Assembly (NCBI GenBank): GCA_009914755.4
Contig: CP086569.2
Location: 48,416,001 to 48,480,000, forward strand
From: the human T2T-CHM13v2.0 reference genome, Homo sapiens
DNA length: 64,000 nt
Direction: 5' to 3'
Part shown: piece by piece, positions 37,514 through 58,433 of the stretch
Numbering within the stretch: the stretch's first letter is position 1
How the letters are laid out: every line of letters starts with the position of its first letter
The notes under the pieces: model-generated
What the model saw: only the letters and a program-made list of their open reading frames with translations
Told to the model about the DNA's origin: nothing
The model's database searches: none
Position numbers and translations under genes: made by a program

Positions 37514-39074
37514 ATACGTATACATTATGTATATAATAATATACAGTATCATATATATAATATATATAACCTATGTATAATATTGTTTTACATCCTGCAT
37601 CCTCTGTTATATATATTGTATAAAATATAATAATTGATAATATATAAGTTTTATAATTATACAATATGACATATACTATATATTATAATTTATGACATAT
37701 ATAATATATGTTATATATCATATATAGAATATATTATACGGTTAATATACGTATGAAATATAAATTATACATTATATATATTATATATAATATATCTGTT
37801 ATATATAATACCCATTAAGCATAATATATATATTATGTCTATGTTATATATAGTATAAAACAACATATAATAATATATAATTGTATATATAAAATGCGAC
37901 ATATAATATATATTATATTTTATAATATATGTAATATATATTATATATTATATATAATACGTTGTATGTATAATACCTATATTAAATATATATTATATGA
38001 CTATGTTATTAATTACATGTCACATGTGATATATATTATATATTTTACATAGAATATACCGGTTACATACAATATATACTATGTTACCTATAATGTATAA
38101 TTTATTACATGTAAAATAAAGAATGCAATATATTATGTAAAATTTATAAAATACAATATGTGGAATGTAATATATATAACATATAATATATGATATATGA
38201 TATACAGTATATGATATATAACATACAATATATGATTCCTATTATATATGGTATACAATATATATTTTATGATATGTATTCTATATGTTTTATATTCTGT
38301 TATATATAACTATTTGAAATTATATATAACTGTTTAATATTTTATGTAAATATGTAATATAATATATATAACTATATAATATATTATATATAAGTATATA
38401 TTATGTTATATATACTTTTATAACATAATTTACATAAAATATCATAATATAATATATATTATATTATTTCATATTACATAATATATATTACATATCACCC
38501 AATATAACTAACATACATAATATTATAATATAGATTATATTATGTTATATTAAATATCATATATATCATGTATCATATATTCTATAATATATATTACACA
38601 TTATATAATATGTATGTTGTCTATTATGTGATATATATAACTATATATATAATTATATTTTTATACATATAACTAGATAAACATGTAATTCTACATATTT
38701 TCATTTATAATATGTAGAATTATATAATCATATATAATTATTTATATTCTATAAAAAGTTTTATCATTATATAAATTATAATATATAAAAATTATAATAT
38801 GTACTACAAATATATATATATTATATATCATATATGATATAGTACCTTTGTTATATATCATAATACATATAAATGTGTATTATGTTATCTATAATTATAT
38901 AATTTCATATATAAGATGTATAATATGTATCATATATTATATATGTTATGTAATATATATACTATATATAAGATGACACAGGATAAATATTATATACTAT
39001 GACATATAAAATATATGAGGTTATATGTTACATATAAGGCATAGCACATAACATGTAATATATATCATATATAA
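37514..39074. repeat. AT-rich low-complexity block, unit 16 (contains the left breakpoint of the 9.68-kb duplication, at about 37.95 kb)
   Basis: Homologous at unit offset. Confidence 0.8.
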
Positions 39075-39372
39075 TTTTTTTTTAGACAGAATCTTGTCCT
39101 GTTGCACAGGGTGGGGTACAATGGCGCCATCTTTGCTCACTGCAACTTCTGCCTCACGGGTCCAAGCGATTGTCCTCCCTCAGCCTCCCAGGTAGCTGGG
39201 ACTACACCACACTGGGACTACACCAGCTGCCACCATGCCTAGCTAATTTTTTGGATTTTTAGTAGTGACAGCGTTTCACTGTATTGGCCAGGATGGTCTT
39301 GATCTCTTCACCTTGTGATCCCCTTGCCTTGGCCTCCAAATTTGCTGGGATTACAGGCCTGAGCCAAGATCC
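39075..39372 (-). mobile_element. Alu, antisense, unit copy 17; subtype B (in duplication copy 1)
   Basis: B diagnostics. Identical to copy 21 at +9680. Confidence 0.93.
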
Positions 39373-39935
39373 ATACTTTTTAAATGAAAAAAAATTTCAA
39401 AGGTACTCTGCTTGGTACAATAATCAAATGTATACACTGAGGAATAAAACATAACCATGAAACCTACTTATAACTGCATATGGAAAATACAGAGGATAAT
39501 TTTTTAAATAACATATTTTGAAAGCCTTAACTAGTAATTTGAAGAGTTGGCATTTGAAAGGCCAGTATGAATATACCTTCAAAGCAGCAACACAGGTTCC
39601 CCATGAGAAAAAGCAAACTCAGGGAAAATAAAAACACAAAGGTTCAATCTCTTCTGACCTTTGAAAGACACAGCACAGACAGTGGTCCTTAGGACGAAGA
39701 GCAGGAGACCCCTAATTCCGTCACCATGGCGATAGGGCATAAACATTGCTGGGTGAGGGCACAATCCACATTGTGAGGTCCAACTGCTGCCAGGAAGACA
39801 GGCGTGCTTTTACATAGACCGAAAGGTCATTGAAGGCTCAGAGTTTTGTTTCAAGAACTGAATCCCAAGCCCACACGTTATTAGGCTGCGCTTCTTAAAA
39901 CAAGTTATGAGATGGGAAAAAGGGCACCCACAAAC

Positions 39936-41494
39936 ATACGTATACATTATGTATATAATAATATACAGTGTCATATATATAATATATATAACCTATGTAT
40001 AATATTGTTTTACATCCTGCATCTTATGTTATATATATTGTATAAAATATAATTATTGATAATATATAAGTTTTATAATTATACTACATGACATATAGTA
40101 TATATTATAATTTATGACATATATAATATATGTTATATATCATATATAGAATATATTATACGGTTAATATACGTATTAAATATAAATTATACATTATATA
40201 TATTATATATAATTTATCTGTTATATATAATACCCATTATGCATAATATATATATTATGTCTATGTTATATATAGTATAAAACAACATATAATAATATAT
40301 AATTGTATATATAAAATGCGACATATAATATATATTATATTTTATAACATATGTAATATATATTATATATTATATATAATACGTTGTATGTATAATACCT
40401 ATATTAAATATATATTATATGACTATGTTATTAATTACATGTCACATGTGTTATATATTATATATTTTACATAGAATATACCGGTTACATACAATATATA
40501 CTATGTTACCTATAATGTATAATTTATTACATGTAAAATAAAGAATGCAATATATTATGTAAAATTTATAACATACAATATGTGGAATGTGATATATATA
40601 ACATATAATATATGATATATGATATACAATATATGATATATAACATACAATATATGATTCCTAATATATATGGTATACAATATATATTTTATGATATGAA
40701 TTCTCTATGTTTTATATTCTGTTATATATAACTATTTGAAATTATATATAACTGTATAATATTTTATTTAAATATGTAATATAATATATATAACTATATA
40801 ATATATTATATATAACTATATATTATGTTATATATACTTTTATATCATAATTTACATAAAATATCATAATATAATATATATTATATTATTTCATATTACA
40901 TAATATATATTACATATCACCCAATATAACTAACATACATAATATTATAATATAGATTATATTGTGTTATATTAAATATCATATATATCATGTATCATAT
41001 ATTCTATAATATATATTACACATTATATAATATGTATGTTGTCTATTATGTGATATATATAACTATATATATAATTATATTTTTATACATATAACTAGAT
41101 AAACATGTAATTCTACATATTTTCATTTATAATATGTAGAATTATATAATCATATATAATTATTTATATTCTATAAAAAATTTTATCATTATATAAATTA
41201 TAATATATAAAAATTATAATATGTACTACAAATATATATATTATATATCATATATGATATAGTACCTTTGTTATATATCATAATACATATAAATGTGTAT
41301 TATGTTATCTATAATTATATAATTTCATATATAAGATGTATAATATGTATCATATATTATATATGTTATGTAATATATATAGTATATATAAGATGACACA
41401 GGATAAATATTATATACTATGACATATAAAATATATGAGGTTATATGTTACATATAAGGCATAGCACATAACATGTAATATATATCATATATAA
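39936..41494. repeat. AT-rich low-complexity block, unit 17
   Basis: Identical to unit 21 block. Confidence 0.8.
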
Positions 41495-56013: not shown

Positions 56014-56311
56014 TTTTTTTTTAGACAGAATCTTGTCCTGTTGCACAGGGTGGGGTACAATGGCGCCATCTTTGCTCACTGCAACTTCTGCCTCACGGGT
56101 CCAAGCGATTGTCCTCCCTCAGCCTCCCAGGTAGCTGGGACTACACCACACTGGGACTACACCAGCTGCCACCATGCCTAGCTAATTTTTTGGATTTTTA
56201 GTAGTGACAGCGTTTCACTGTATTGGCCAGGATGGTCTTGATCTCTTCACCTTGTGATCCCCTTGCCTTGGCCTCCAAATTTGCTGGGATTACAGGCCTG
56301 AGCCAAGATCC
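56014..56311 (-). mobile_element. Alu, antisense, unit copy 24; subtype B (in duplication copy 2)
   Basis: Pairs with copy 20. Confidence 0.93.
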
Positions 56312-56874
56312 ATACTTTTTAAATAAAAAAAAATTTCAAAGGTACACTGCTTGGTACAATAATCCAATGTATACACTGAGAAATAAAACATAACCATGAA
56401 ACCTACTTATAACTGCATATGGAAAATACAGAGGATAATTTTTTAAATAACATATTTTGAAAGCCTTAACTAGTAATTTGAAGAGTTGGCATTTGAAAGG
56501 TCAGTATGAATATACCTTCAAAGCAGCAACACAGGTTCCCCATGAGAAAAAGCAAACTCAGGGAAAATAAAAACACAAAGGTTCAATCTCTTCTGACCTT
56601 TGAAAGACACAGCACAGACAGTGGTCCTTAGGACGAAGAGCAGGAGACCCCTAATTCCGTCACCATGGCGATAGGGCATAAACATTGCTGGGTGAGGGCA
56701 CAATCCACATTGTGAGGTCCAACTGCTGCCAGGAAGACAGGAGTGCTTTTACATAGACCGAAAGGTCATTGAAGGCTCAGAGTTTTGTTTCAAGAACTGA
56801 ATCCCAAGCCCACACGTTATTAGGCTGCGCTTCTTAAAACAAGTTATGAGATGGGAAAAAGGGCACCCACAAAC

Positions 56875-58433
56875 ATACGTATACATTATGTATATAATAA
56901 TATACAGTGTCATATATATAATATATATAACCTATGTATAATATTGTTTTACATCCTGCATCTTATGTTATATATATTGTATAAAATATAATTATTGATA
57001 ATATATAAGTTTTATAATTATACTATATGACATATAGTATATATTATAATTTATGACATATATAATATATGTTATATATCATATATAGAATATATTATAC
57101 GGTTAATATACGTATTAAATATAAATTATACATTATATATATTATATATAATATATCTGTTATATATAATACCCATTATGCATAATATATATATTATGTC
57201 TATATTATATATAGTATAAAACAACATATAATAATATATAATTGTATATATAAAATGCGACATATAATATATATTATATTTTATAACATATGTAATATAT
57301 ATTATATATTATATATAATACGTTGTATGTATAATACCTATATTAAATATATATTATATGACTATGTTATTAATTACATGTCACATGTGTTATATATTAT
57401 ATATTTTACATAGAATATACCGGTTACATACAATATATACTATGTTACCTATAATGTATAATTTATTACATGTAAAATAAAGAATGCAATATATTATGTA
57501 AAATTTATAACATACAATATGTGGAATGTGATATATATAACATATAATATATGATATATGATATACAATATATGATATATAACATACAATATATGATTCC
57601 TAATATATATGGTATACAATATATATTTTATGATATGAATTCTCTATGTTTTATATTCTGTTATATATAACTATTTGAAATTATATATAACTGTATAATA
57701 TTTTATTTAAATATGTAATATAATATATATAACTATATAATATATTATATATAACTATATATTATGTTATATATACTTTTATAACATAATTTACATAAAA
57801 TATCATAATATAATATATATTATATTATTTCATATTACATAATATATATTACATATCACACAATATAACTAACATACATAGTATTATAATATAGATTATA
57901 TTGTGTTATATTAAATATCATATATATCATGTATCATTTATTCTATAATATATATTACACATTATATAATATGTATGTTGTCTATTATGTGATATATATA
58001 ACTATATATATAATTATATTTTTATACATATAACTAGATAAACATGTAATTCTACATATTTTCATTTATAATATGTAGAATTATATAATCATATATAATT
58101 ATTTATATTCTATAAAAAATTTTATCATTATATAAATTATAATATATAAAAATTATACTATGTACTACAAATATATATATTATACATCATATATGATATA
58201 GTACCTTTGTTATATATCATAATACATATAAATGTGTATTATGTTATCTATAATTATATAATTTCATATATAAGATGTATAATATGTATCATATATTATA
58301 TATGTTATGTAATATATATAGTATATATAAGATGACACAGGATAAATATTATATACTATGACATATAAAATATATGAGGTTATATGTTACATATAAGGCA
58401 TAGCACATAACATGTAATATATATCATATATAA
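56875..58433. repeat. AT-rich low-complexity block, unit 24 (contains the right end of the duplication, at about 57.35 kb)
   Basis: Homologous at unit offset. Confidence 0.8.

What the first reader, a model, noticed from the sequence alone, without database searches (positions are those of the whole stretch)
37950..57350. Very recent tandem duplication of a 9,680-bp four-unit block (higher-order repeat in formation)
Two adjacent 9.68-kb segments are more than 99.9% identical and share about a dozen otherwise-rare variants at an exact +9680 offset. Ordinary neighbouring units differ by about 1-3%. The junction is abrupt at about 47.65 kb and identity is lost at about 37.95 kb and 57.35 kb, the signature of a single unequal sister-chromatid or homologous exchange. 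Such a young event predicts presence/absence polymorphism between haplotypes. It could also be an assembly artefact (collapsed or duplicated contig), which is worth ruling out.
Basis: seen in the sequence. Interest (0 to 1): 0.75.

Follow-up and report, generated by a model that had tools for sequence, protein, structure and literature searches.

The report
Recent four-unit duplication in DYZ2 satellite
The window is a human HSat1B/DYZ2 satellite array of 2.4-kb units, and four units (9.68 kb) really were duplicated in tandem by one unequal exchange, but published pedigree data show that such whole-unit gains arise about once per Y-chromosome transmission, so the event is ordinary.

Summary
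The window holds 26.4 head-to-tail units of about 2,420 bp (24.6% GC). Each unit has an AT-rich part, a 5'-truncated diverged AluY and a GC-richer part, which is the published anatomy of HSat1B/DYZ2.

Positions 37927-47607 and 47608-57287 differ at 5 sites in 9,681 bp (99.95% identity). Non-partner units in the same neighbourhood differ by 14-28 sites per 2.4 kb. Fourteen variants are shared only by +9680/9681 partners.

Unit 20 (45961-48380) is a clean chimera. It matches unit 24 at all 22 informative sites up to 47607 and unit 16 at all 14 from 47710 on. That places a single crossover in 47608-47709.

The near-identical tract equals the period. An unequal exchange requires this; a gene conversion would match it only by coincidence. 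All five differences are derived singletons, which argues against a false assembly duplication, though reads are needed to exclude one.

"Higher-order repeat in formation" is not supported: there are only two copies and no 4-unit periodicity elsewhere.

If the array lies in Yq12, the published mutation rate dates the event to about 500 generations. At the published rate of structural change, about two whole-unit events are expected per 64 kb in that time. This is a real, well-documented kind of event of low interest.

The parts
1..64000 (+). Tandem array of 26.4 HSat1B/DYZ2 units of 2,411-2,422 bp, all in the same orientation. My unit phase starts at 1, 2420, 4840, ... 38700 (u17), 41122, 43542, 45961 (u20), 48381, 50802, 53222, 55641 (u24), 58061, 60481, 62903.
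   Evidence: A self-megablast gives full-length alignments at every multiple of about 2,420 bp, at 97.4-98.3% identity. GC is 24.6%. A 29-mer spanning the GC-rich/AT-rich junction and containing ACATACG matches 26 times, all on the + strand.
37927..47607 (+). Copy 1 of the duplicated 4-unit block, 9,681 bp. The phase is arbitrary within 102 bp; the leftmost phase is shown.
47608..57287 (+). Copy 2 of the duplicated block, 9,680 bp.
47608..47709 (.). Crossover (junction) interval: 102 bp in which the two parental units (u16-type and u24-type) are identical. It lies in the AT-rich part of the unit, inside the internal 230-bp sub-repeat.
   Evidence: u20 matches u24 at 22 of 22 informative sites up to 47607 and u16 at 14 of 14 from 47710 on. 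TRF reports a 230-bp repeat at 47291-47721.
45961..48380 (+). Chimeric junction unit u20: head of u24 type, tail of u16 type. The haplotype 47524 A + 47710 A (186 bp apart) occurs only in this unit.
   Evidence: None of 13 external HSat1B contigs carries either A.
37927..38028 (.). Left edge interval of the duplication, homologous to the crossover interval. 37926 T is private to u16.
57288..57389 (.). Right edge interval of the duplication. The first mismatch with the partner position is at 57390.
47746..48044 (+). Two private derived substitutions in the u20 tail (47746 A>G and 48044 T>A), 36-437 bp 3' of the crossover interval.
   Evidence: The clustering is marginal, with post-hoc P of 0.003-0.04.
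48689..48689 (+). 1-bp deletion in copy 2 (A4 becomes A3), relative to 39008 in copy 1.
51318..51318 (+). Private derived T in copy 2. Its partner 41638 and all other units have C.
44141..44141 (+). Private derived T in copy 1. Its partner 53821 and all other units have A.
39075..39366 (-). Alu-derived part of the unit (example from u17). It is 81.6% identical to the AluY consensus and lacks the first 12 nt.
   Evidence: Rfam gives only a weak hit to the Alu-derived mir-1268 at 39179-39245.

Best explanation
The window is a stretch of the human composite satellite HSat1B/DYZ2. It most probably comes from Yq12, but the location is inferred, not shown.

Within a locally young, homogeneous part of the array, two misaligned copies of the array paired four units out of register. 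On the Y these would be sister chromatids. They exchanged once, inside a 102-bp stretch of perfect identity (now 47608-47709) in the AT-rich part of the unit.

The product carries the 9.68-kb segment twice in tandem, joined by a chimeric unit (u20) with the head of the downstream parent (u24 type) and the tail of the upstream parent (u16 type). Since then the two copies have acquired five private changes.

Shown: the duplication, its exact period, the single switch point, the derived state of the five differences, and the rarity of the shared variants.

Inferred: that the exchange was between sister chromatids, that the array lies on the Y, and the age of the event.
For: Identity of the satellite:
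- The unit is about 2,420 bp and the window is 24.6% GC.
- The order AT-rich / 5'-truncated Alu about 18% diverged from AluY / GC-richer segment / ACATACG / AT-rich matches the published descriptions: a 2,420-bp consensus, 24% GC and the ACATACG motif in 10.1101/2022.12.01.518658, and an AluY subunit 20% diverged with units >98% identical in 10.1101/2022.12.01.518724.
- Contigs of about 2.4 kb that are 98.6-99.5% identical turn up as contaminants in bacterial assemblies and metagenomes, as Rhie et al. reported for HSat1B.

The duplication:
- There are 5 differences in 9,681 bp.
- 14 variants are shared exclusively by partner positions.
- The tract is a unique outlier among all unit offsets.

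A single exchange:
- The three-way comparison of u16, u20 and u24 switches once, 22 of 22 sites then 14 of 14 (visible in the haplotype matrix).
- The near-identity tract is 9,496-9,783 bp against a period of 9,681 bp. An unequal crossover makes these equal by necessity.

Real copies rather than the same reads used twice:
- All 5 differences are singletons, absent from the other 24-25 units and from the external copies that cover each site (9-15 copies).

Plausibility:
- De novo structural variants of 2,416-4,839 bp, each a whole number of DYZ2 units, arise about once per Y transmission (PMC12240836).
- Sister-chromatid exchanges are seen in Yq12 in about 15% of Strand-seq libraries (10.1101/2022.12.01.518724).
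Against: No reads are available, so adjacency of the two copies rests on the assembly. Tandem-repeat loops are a known trouble spot for assemblers (PMC13252187, section on manual graph curation).

One haplotype cannot distinguish a gain of four units from a replacement of four pre-existing units.

Two of the four substitutions sit within 437 bp of the junction on the junction-adjacent copy. A plain crossover followed by uniform mutation predicts this only weakly (P about 0.003-0.04, post hoc).

The chromosomal location (Y versus acrocentric short arm) is not shown. If the array is acrocentric, an exchange between homologues or between different chromosomes is also possible.
Confidence: 0.82

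Rival explanations
1. Assembly artefact. A loop in the assembly graph of the tandem array was traversed once too often, or two distant near-identical stretches were joined, so the source chromosome has only one copy at this place.
For: The region is a 98%-identical satellite, and such regions are error-prone for assemblers (PMC13252187 describes mis-walked loops in tandem repeats). A falsely repeated loop would also give a tract length equal to the period. One of the five differences is a homopolymer-length change, A4 versus A3, which is a typical consensus error.
Against: Four substitution differences separate the copies. Each is a derived singleton absent from every other unit in the window and from the external copies. 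A loop walked twice would give two identical consensus copies. The chimeric unit u20 carries two private substitutions of its own, so it is a distinct physical sequence.
Confidence: 0.07
2. Long-tract gene conversion. Four pre-existing units were overwritten by a copy of the four neighbouring units, with no change in unit number.
For: Interlocus gene conversion is frequent in Yq12: 29% of de novo SNVs there have identical matches elsewhere in Yq12 (PMC12240836). From one haplotype, the final sequence pattern (flank, X, X, flank) is the same as for a duplication.
Against: A conversion tract has no reason to equal the donor-acceptor offset. Here the tract (9,496-9,783 bp) equals the period (9,681 bp) to within about 150 bp. 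Conversion tracts measured on the Y are short, with a median of 542 bp in palindromes (PMC13252187). A tract exactly adjacent to its donor and exactly one period long would be a coincidence of roughly a few per cent at best.
Confidence: 0.04
3. Replication-based duplication. A broken or stalled fork re-invaded the sister four units behind (break-induced replication or template switching) and re-copied 9.68 kb. This is not a reciprocal crossover.
For: It gives the same tandem product and a junction within homology. Two of the four substitutions lie 36-437 bp downstream of the junction on the junction-adjacent copy. Error-prone repair synthesis would produce that pattern (established knowledge: break-induced replication is mutagenic).
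Against: The clustering rests on two sites and was noticed post hoc (P 0.003-0.04). The rest of copy 2 carries only one substitution and one 1-bp indel in about 9.2 kb, so there is no general excess of mutation along the putatively re-synthesised tract. The junction has no special secondary-structure potential (DNA fold z = -1.14).
Confidence: 0.07

Closest known systems
HSat1B / DYZ2 satellite of the human Y long arm (Yq12), with minor arrays on acrocentric short arms
   Same: The unit length matches (2,411-2,422 bp against a 2,420-bp consensus), as does GC content (24.6% against 24%). The composite anatomy is the same: an AT-rich simple-repeat part, a 5'-truncated AluY fragment about 18-20% diverged, and a GC-richer 'HSATI' part, with the ACATACG motif at the HSATI/AT-rich junction. 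Inter-unit identity is about 98%. The sequence also occurs as a contaminant in bacterial assemblies.
   Different: Nothing found differs. Location on the Y, and alternation with DYZ1 blocks, cannot be seen in a 64-kb window that lies wholly inside one array.
Local whole-unit expansions and contractions of DYZ2 arrays: de novo structural variants of 2,416-4,839 bp in a four-generation pedigree (PMC12240836), and small-scale deletions and expansions inside HSat1B sub-arrays of T2T-Y (10.1101/2022.12.01.518724, Extended Data Fig. 8d)
   Same: The event is a gain of an integer number of DYZ2 units, in tandem, inside an array, within a locally homogeneous (young) zone.
   Different: This event spans four units (9.68 kb), larger than the one- and two-unit de novo events reported. 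It is not de novo: five differences have accumulated since it happened.
Classical unequal crossing-over / non-allelic homologous recombination in tandem arrays (Smith's model of satellite evolution; established knowledge)
   Same: There is a single chimeric junction unit with one switch of parental markers inside a stretch of perfect identity. The duplicated tract is exactly one period long.
   Different: The reciprocal deletion product and the partner molecule (sister chromatid or homologue) are not observable here.
Higher-order repeats and 'layered expansion' of satellite arrays, as described for alpha satellite and, using NTRprism, for HSat1 (10.1101/2021.07.12.452052)
   Same: A young, homogeneous clade of units ({u9, u17-u24, u26}, 10-31 differences) sits beside older, more divergent units (45-85 differences). 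A multi-unit block has been copied.
   Different: There are only two copies of the 4-unit block, and no 4-unit periodicity elsewhere in the window. This does not meet the definition of a higher-order repeat.

Membership tests
HSat1B / DYZ2 satellite | Tandem unit of about 2.4 kb (2,420-bp consensus) | tested here: met
   Unit spacings are 2,411-2,422 bp, mostly 2,418-2,422. The best self-offset is 2,420.
HSat1B / DYZ2 satellite | Composite unit: AT-rich simple-repeat part + 5'-truncated ancient AluY fragment (about 20% diverged) + GC-richer HSATI part | tested here: met
   The sequence of unit 17 was read.
HSat1B / DYZ2 satellite | About 24% GC, and the ACATACG motif at the HSATI/AT-rich junction | tested here: met
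   GC is 24.6%. The motif is present in 23 of 26 units; u3, u10 and u26 each carry one substitution inside it.
HSat1B / DYZ2 satellite | Direct alignment to the published DYZ2 consensus sequence | not testable with these tools
   The consensus sequence is not held as text. As a proxy, 13 independent contaminant contigs retrieved by pattern are 89-99.5% identical to unit 17.
HSat1B / DYZ2 satellite | Location in Yq12, alternating with DYZ1 (HSat3) blocks | not testable with these tools
   The window lies wholly inside one array, and no human reference is searchable. [quoted passage not shown]
Tandem duplication by unequal homologous exchange | Two adjacent head-to-tail copies whose period is a whole number of array units | tested here: met
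   The offset is 9,681/9,680 bp, which is 4 units.
Tandem duplication by unequal homologous exchange | Length of the near-identical tract equals the period | tested here: met
   The tract is bounded between 9,496 and 9,783 bp, against a period of 9,681 bp.
Tandem duplication by unequal homologous exchange | One chimeric junction unit with a single switch between the two parental marker sets, inside uninterrupted homology | tested here: met
   The switch is 22 of 22 sites then 14 of 14, inside a 102-bp identical interval.
Tandem duplication by unequal homologous exchange | Presence/absence polymorphism, or a reciprocal deletion, in related haplotypes | not testable with these tools
   No human assemblies are searchable. 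None of 13 external contigs carries the junction haplotype, but these are random units and so uninformative.
Higher-order repeat (HOR) | Many tandem copies of a multi-unit block, with units one HOR period apart much more alike than units within the block, across the array | tested here: not met
   There are only two copies. Outside u16-u24, mean distance is 53.9 at offset 4 against 51.8 at offset 3 and 51.9 at offset 5. u21 versus u25 differ at 26 sites.
False duplication in an assembly | The two copies are built from the same reads and are therefore identical (or differ only by consensus noise) | tested here: not met
   Four substitutions and one homopolymer indel separate the copies, and all are derived singletons.
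False duplication in an assembly | Read depth halved over the duplicated span, and no read spanning the junction plus both flanks | not testable with these tools
   No reads are available.
Gene conversion | Tract length independent of the donor-acceptor distance, and typically well under 1-2 kb | tested here: not met
   The tract equals the offset (9.68 kb). The median tract in Y palindromes is 542 bp.

The most novel reading that the evidence does not exclude
The duplication was made by error-prone, break-induced re-replication of four units rather than by a reciprocal crossover. The two private substitutions 36-437 bp downstream of the junction (47746 A>G and 48044 T>A) would then be its mutational scar. 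If so, unit-level expansions of human heterochromatic satellites would carry a junction-proximal mutation signature, and that signature could account for part of the roughly 30-fold excess of 'point mutations' reported for Yq12.
Probability: 0.08. Interest if true: 0.4.

Novelty: already known. Interest (0 to 1): 0.15.

Why it matters
It matters little beyond being a clean textbook example. The event shows at base resolution how a composite human satellite grows. One exchange between copies paired four units out of register, inside 102 bp of perfect identity, left a chimeric unit whose 187-bp marker haplotype (47524 A to 47710 A) could serve as a lineage marker for the Y haplogroups that inherited it.

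Gains and losses of whole DYZ2 units are already measured in pedigrees at about one per Y transmission. The published rates predict about two such events per 64 kb over the estimated age of this one. Finding one is therefore expected, and it does not open a new question.

The only slightly unusual feature is the pair of substitutions next to the junction. That would be worth a systematic look across many such junctions in population-scale Y assemblies.

Tried and rejected
- Rfam scan of one unit. It gave only a sub-threshold hit to mir-1268, which is Alu-derived. There is no structured RNA family.
- ORF scan of the duplicated block. No ORF reaches 90 aa, so there is no coding content to pursue.
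- Special DNA structure at the junction as a trigger. The DNA fold of 47580-47740 has z = -1.14, and the many imperfect inverted repeats are generic to the AT-rich part. Rejected.
- Four-unit periodicity elsewhere in the window, as the HOR reading would predict. None was found.
- A search for the junction haplotype in outside data. One scan each of genome contigs and metagenome contigs, using a pattern that leaves both marker sites free, returned 13 HSat1B contigs, all with the consensus G...T combination. This confirms that the markers are rare but says nothing about the reality of the junction, because the contigs are random units.
- A first attempt to add the external contigs to the unit alignment timed out, because low-identity AT-rich HSPs flooded it. 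It was redone with megablast filtering.
- TRF cannot see the 2.4-kb or 9.68-kb periods, since its longest period is 500. It reported only the internal 230-bp sub-repeat.
- Y versus acrocentric origin, and species beyond 'human', could not be settled with the available collections.

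
Full report
**What the window is**

The whole 64-kb window is one tandem array. A self-comparison gives end-to-end alignments at every multiple of about 2,420 bp, at 97.4-98.3% identity. Anchoring on the first 300 bp defines 26 complete units of 2,411-2,422 bp plus a partial one. Base composition is 24.6% G+C.

Each unit reads, on the + strand, as follows:
- an AT-rich part of about 1.5 kb;
- a GC-richer part of about 550 bp, ending in ...CCCACAAACATACG, after which the next AT-rich part begins.

This is the published anatomy of HSat1B/DYZ2. 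[quoted passage not shown] Rhie et al. describe an AluY subunit about 20% diverged and units mostly >98% identical (10.1101/2022.12.01.518724).

A pattern scan of the public bacterial-genome and metagenome collections returned 13 contigs, three of them in bacterial isolate assemblies. They are 89-99.5% identical to unit 17. This fits the reported contamination of microbial databases with HSat1B and indicates human origin.

[quoted passage not shown] Yq12 is therefore the likely source, but I could not test this. There is no ORF of 90 aa or more in the block and no Rfam family beyond a weak Alu-derived hit.

**Checking the observation**

At the exact offset of 9,680, identity per 500-bp bin is 0.98-1.00 from about 39.0 to 48.5 kb (1.00 or 0.998 in 16 of the 19 bins) and 0.17-0.57 almost everywhere else (one short stretch at 18.5-19.5 kb reaches about 0.85). 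The low values are an out-of-register effect of small indels.

A gapped alignment shows the true picture. Dense mismatches stop at 37926/47607 and restart at 47710/57390. In between there are only five differences:
- 38065 A vs 47746 G;
- 38363 T vs 48044 A;
- a 1-bp A4/A3 length difference at 39008/48689;
- 41638 C vs 51318 T;
- 44141 T vs 53821 A.

That is 99.95% identity over 9,681 bp. In the multiple alignment of units, u17/u21, u18/u22 and u19/u23 differ by one site each. Non-partner pairs among u17-u24 differ by 14-28 sites, and pairs across the window by up to 85.

Fourteen variants are carried only by the two partner positions and by no other unit. In the external contigs all but one of these sites show only the consensus allele.

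No other unit offset has a span with five or fewer mismatches longer than 2,157 columns, against 9,810 here. Even against the most similar local pair, the Poisson probability is about 2e-18.

**Anatomy of the event**

The informative comparison is between three units: u16 (36278-38699), u20 (45961-48380) and u24 (55641-58060).
- At all 22 sites up to column 1652 (47607) where u16 and u24 differ, u20 carries the u24 allele.
- At all 14 such sites from column 1755 (47710) onward, u20 carries the u16 allele.
- Two further sites (47746 G and 48044 A) are private to u20.

So u20 is a two-parent chimera with a single switch inside 47608-47709, a stretch of 102 bp in which the parents are identical. 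The haplotype matrix shows this directly.

The outer limits of the duplication follow from the same sites: left edge 37927-38028, right edge 57288-57389. Copy 1 can be written as 37927-47607 (9,681 bp) and copy 2 as 47608-57287 (9,680 bp). The phase can slide by up to 102 bp.

The junction lies in the AT-rich part of the unit, inside an internal 230-bp sub-repeat. It has no unusual folding potential (z = -1.14).

**Mechanism**

An unequal exchange between two copies of the array paired four units out of register gives exactly this product. It predicts one chimeric unit, one switch point within homology, and a duplicated tract exactly one period long.

The last point discriminates against gene conversion. 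A conversion tract has no reason to equal the donor-acceptor distance, yet here the tract (bounded between 9,496 and 9,783 bp) matches the 9,681-bp period. Measured conversion tracts on the Y are also short, with a median of 542 bp in palindromes (PMC13252187).

If the array is on the male-specific Y, the partner must be the sister chromatid or the same chromatid. Sister-chromatid exchanges in Yq12 are seen in about 15% of Strand-seq libraries.

A replication-based route (break-induced replication or template switching) would give the same product. The only hint in its favour is that two of the four substitutions lie 36-437 bp 3' of the junction on the junction-adjacent copy. That is marginal and was noticed post hoc (P about 0.003-0.04).

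**Is it an artefact?**

This cannot be settled without reads. All five differences are derived singletons, four in copy 2 and one in copy 1. They are absent from the other units and from the external copies that cover each site.

A graph loop walked twice would yield identical copies. Four substitutions in 9.7 kb are not what consensus noise looks like; only the A4/A3 difference is of that kind. I put the artefact at about 7%.

**Age and expectation**

I used the pedigree-based Yq12 rate of 3.86e-7 per bp per generation (PMC12240836). Four substitutions between two 9,681-bp copies then correspond to about 535 generations (95% CI about 150-1,370). The figure would be about twice that at the whole-MSY rate.

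The same pedigree found five de novo structural variants of 2,416-4,839 bp, each made of whole DYZ2 units, which is about one per Y transmission. T2T-Y holds about 14 Mb of DYZ2, or about 5,800 units. The rate is therefore about 1.7e-4 per unit per generation, or about 2.4 events per 64-kb window in 535 generations.

A single visible gain of this age in a window of this size is what the published rates predict. The event is 'recent' relative to the array, but it is not exceptional. Both the age and the expected number assume the window is Yq12 DYZ2.

**'Higher-order repeat in formation'**

This reading is not supported. There are only two copies of the block. The next unit in register (u25) differs from u21 at 26 sites. 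Outside u16-u24, units four apart are no more alike than units three or five apart (53.9 against 51.8 and 51.9 differences).

The window does show a layered history. A young clade {u9, u17-u24, u26} has 10-31 differences between its members. It is nested among progressively older units (u16, u14, u8/u15/u25), and these sit beside a divergent set (u1-u7, u10-u13) with 43-85 differences between its members. Older chimeric units are visible too, for example u8, u10 and u14 in the matrix.

This is the pattern of local expansion and homogenisation already described for DYZ2 arrays and centromeric satellites.

**Verdict**

The object is an ordinary instance of a documented and frequent process in HSat1B/DYZ2. 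Novelty: already known. Interest: low (0.15).

Noticed in passing
window 1-64000 (units 1-13 versus units 17-26): There is a homogeneity gradient. Adjacent units differ by 43-75 sites per 2.4 kb in the left half (1-31 kb) but by only 15-28 in the right part (38.7-62.9 kb). Mean divergence also rises steadily with distance in units, from 1.7% at offset 1 to 2.8% at offset 25. The window seems to run from an older zone into a young expansion zone of the array.
   Followed up: partly
window units u8 (16930-19340), u10 (21763-24183), u14 (31440-33857): Older chimeric units are visible in the haplotype matrix. u8 has a head like u5 and a tail like u15/u25. u10 has a head like the young clade and a tail like u11-u13. 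u14 has an old-type head and a young-type tail. These look like traces of earlier exchanges or conversions.
   Followed up: no
window u9 (19341-21762) vs u17 (38700-41121); u15 (33858-36277) vs u25 (58061-60480); u17 vs u26 (60481-62902): Some non-adjacent units are near-twins, with 10-12 differences at offsets of 8, 10 and 9 units. Each relationship is only about one unit long, so these are not tandem duplications. Possible causes are one-unit conversions, or older duplications later separated by insertions.
   Followed up: no
window 47746 and 48044: The two private substitutions of the chimeric unit lie 36-437 bp 3' of the crossover interval. The other ~9.2 kb of aligned sequence (both copies together) carries only two substitutions and one indel. 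The clustering is marginal (post-hoc P 0.003-0.04).
   Followed up: partly
window, e.g. 47291-47721, 42445-42882, 37610-38040: Each unit contains an internal sub-repeat of about 230 bp x 1.9 copies, at 75-77% identity, within its AT-rich part. The crossover interval falls inside this sub-repeat.
   Followed up: no
L001 (LZSC01000004.1, Mycobacterium sp.), L002 (CALPCJ010000037.1, Senimuribacter sp.), L003 (WYCU01000038.1, Azonexaceae bacterium): Bacterial genome assemblies contain stand-alone contigs of 0.8-2.5 kb that are 97.6-99.2% identical to this human satellite unit. This is human contamination of the kind reported by Rhie et al.
   Followed up: partly
L007 1-3966, L008 1-5406, L009 1-3443 (metagenome contigs): These contigs join a unit about 99% identical to the window's units directly to a unit only 90-94% identical. 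They may come from array edges or from non-Y (acrocentric) HSat1B.
   Followed up: no
window + strand, all 26 units (e.g. 39923-39951): The + strand reads HSATI-ACATACG-AT-rich. If the motif was quoted in the orientation of the published consensus, this is the consensus (sense) orientation, whereas 96.2% of Yq12 units are reported as antisense in assemblies (PMC13252187). The window may have been reverse-complemented, or it may come from one of the inverted arrays.
   Followed up: no
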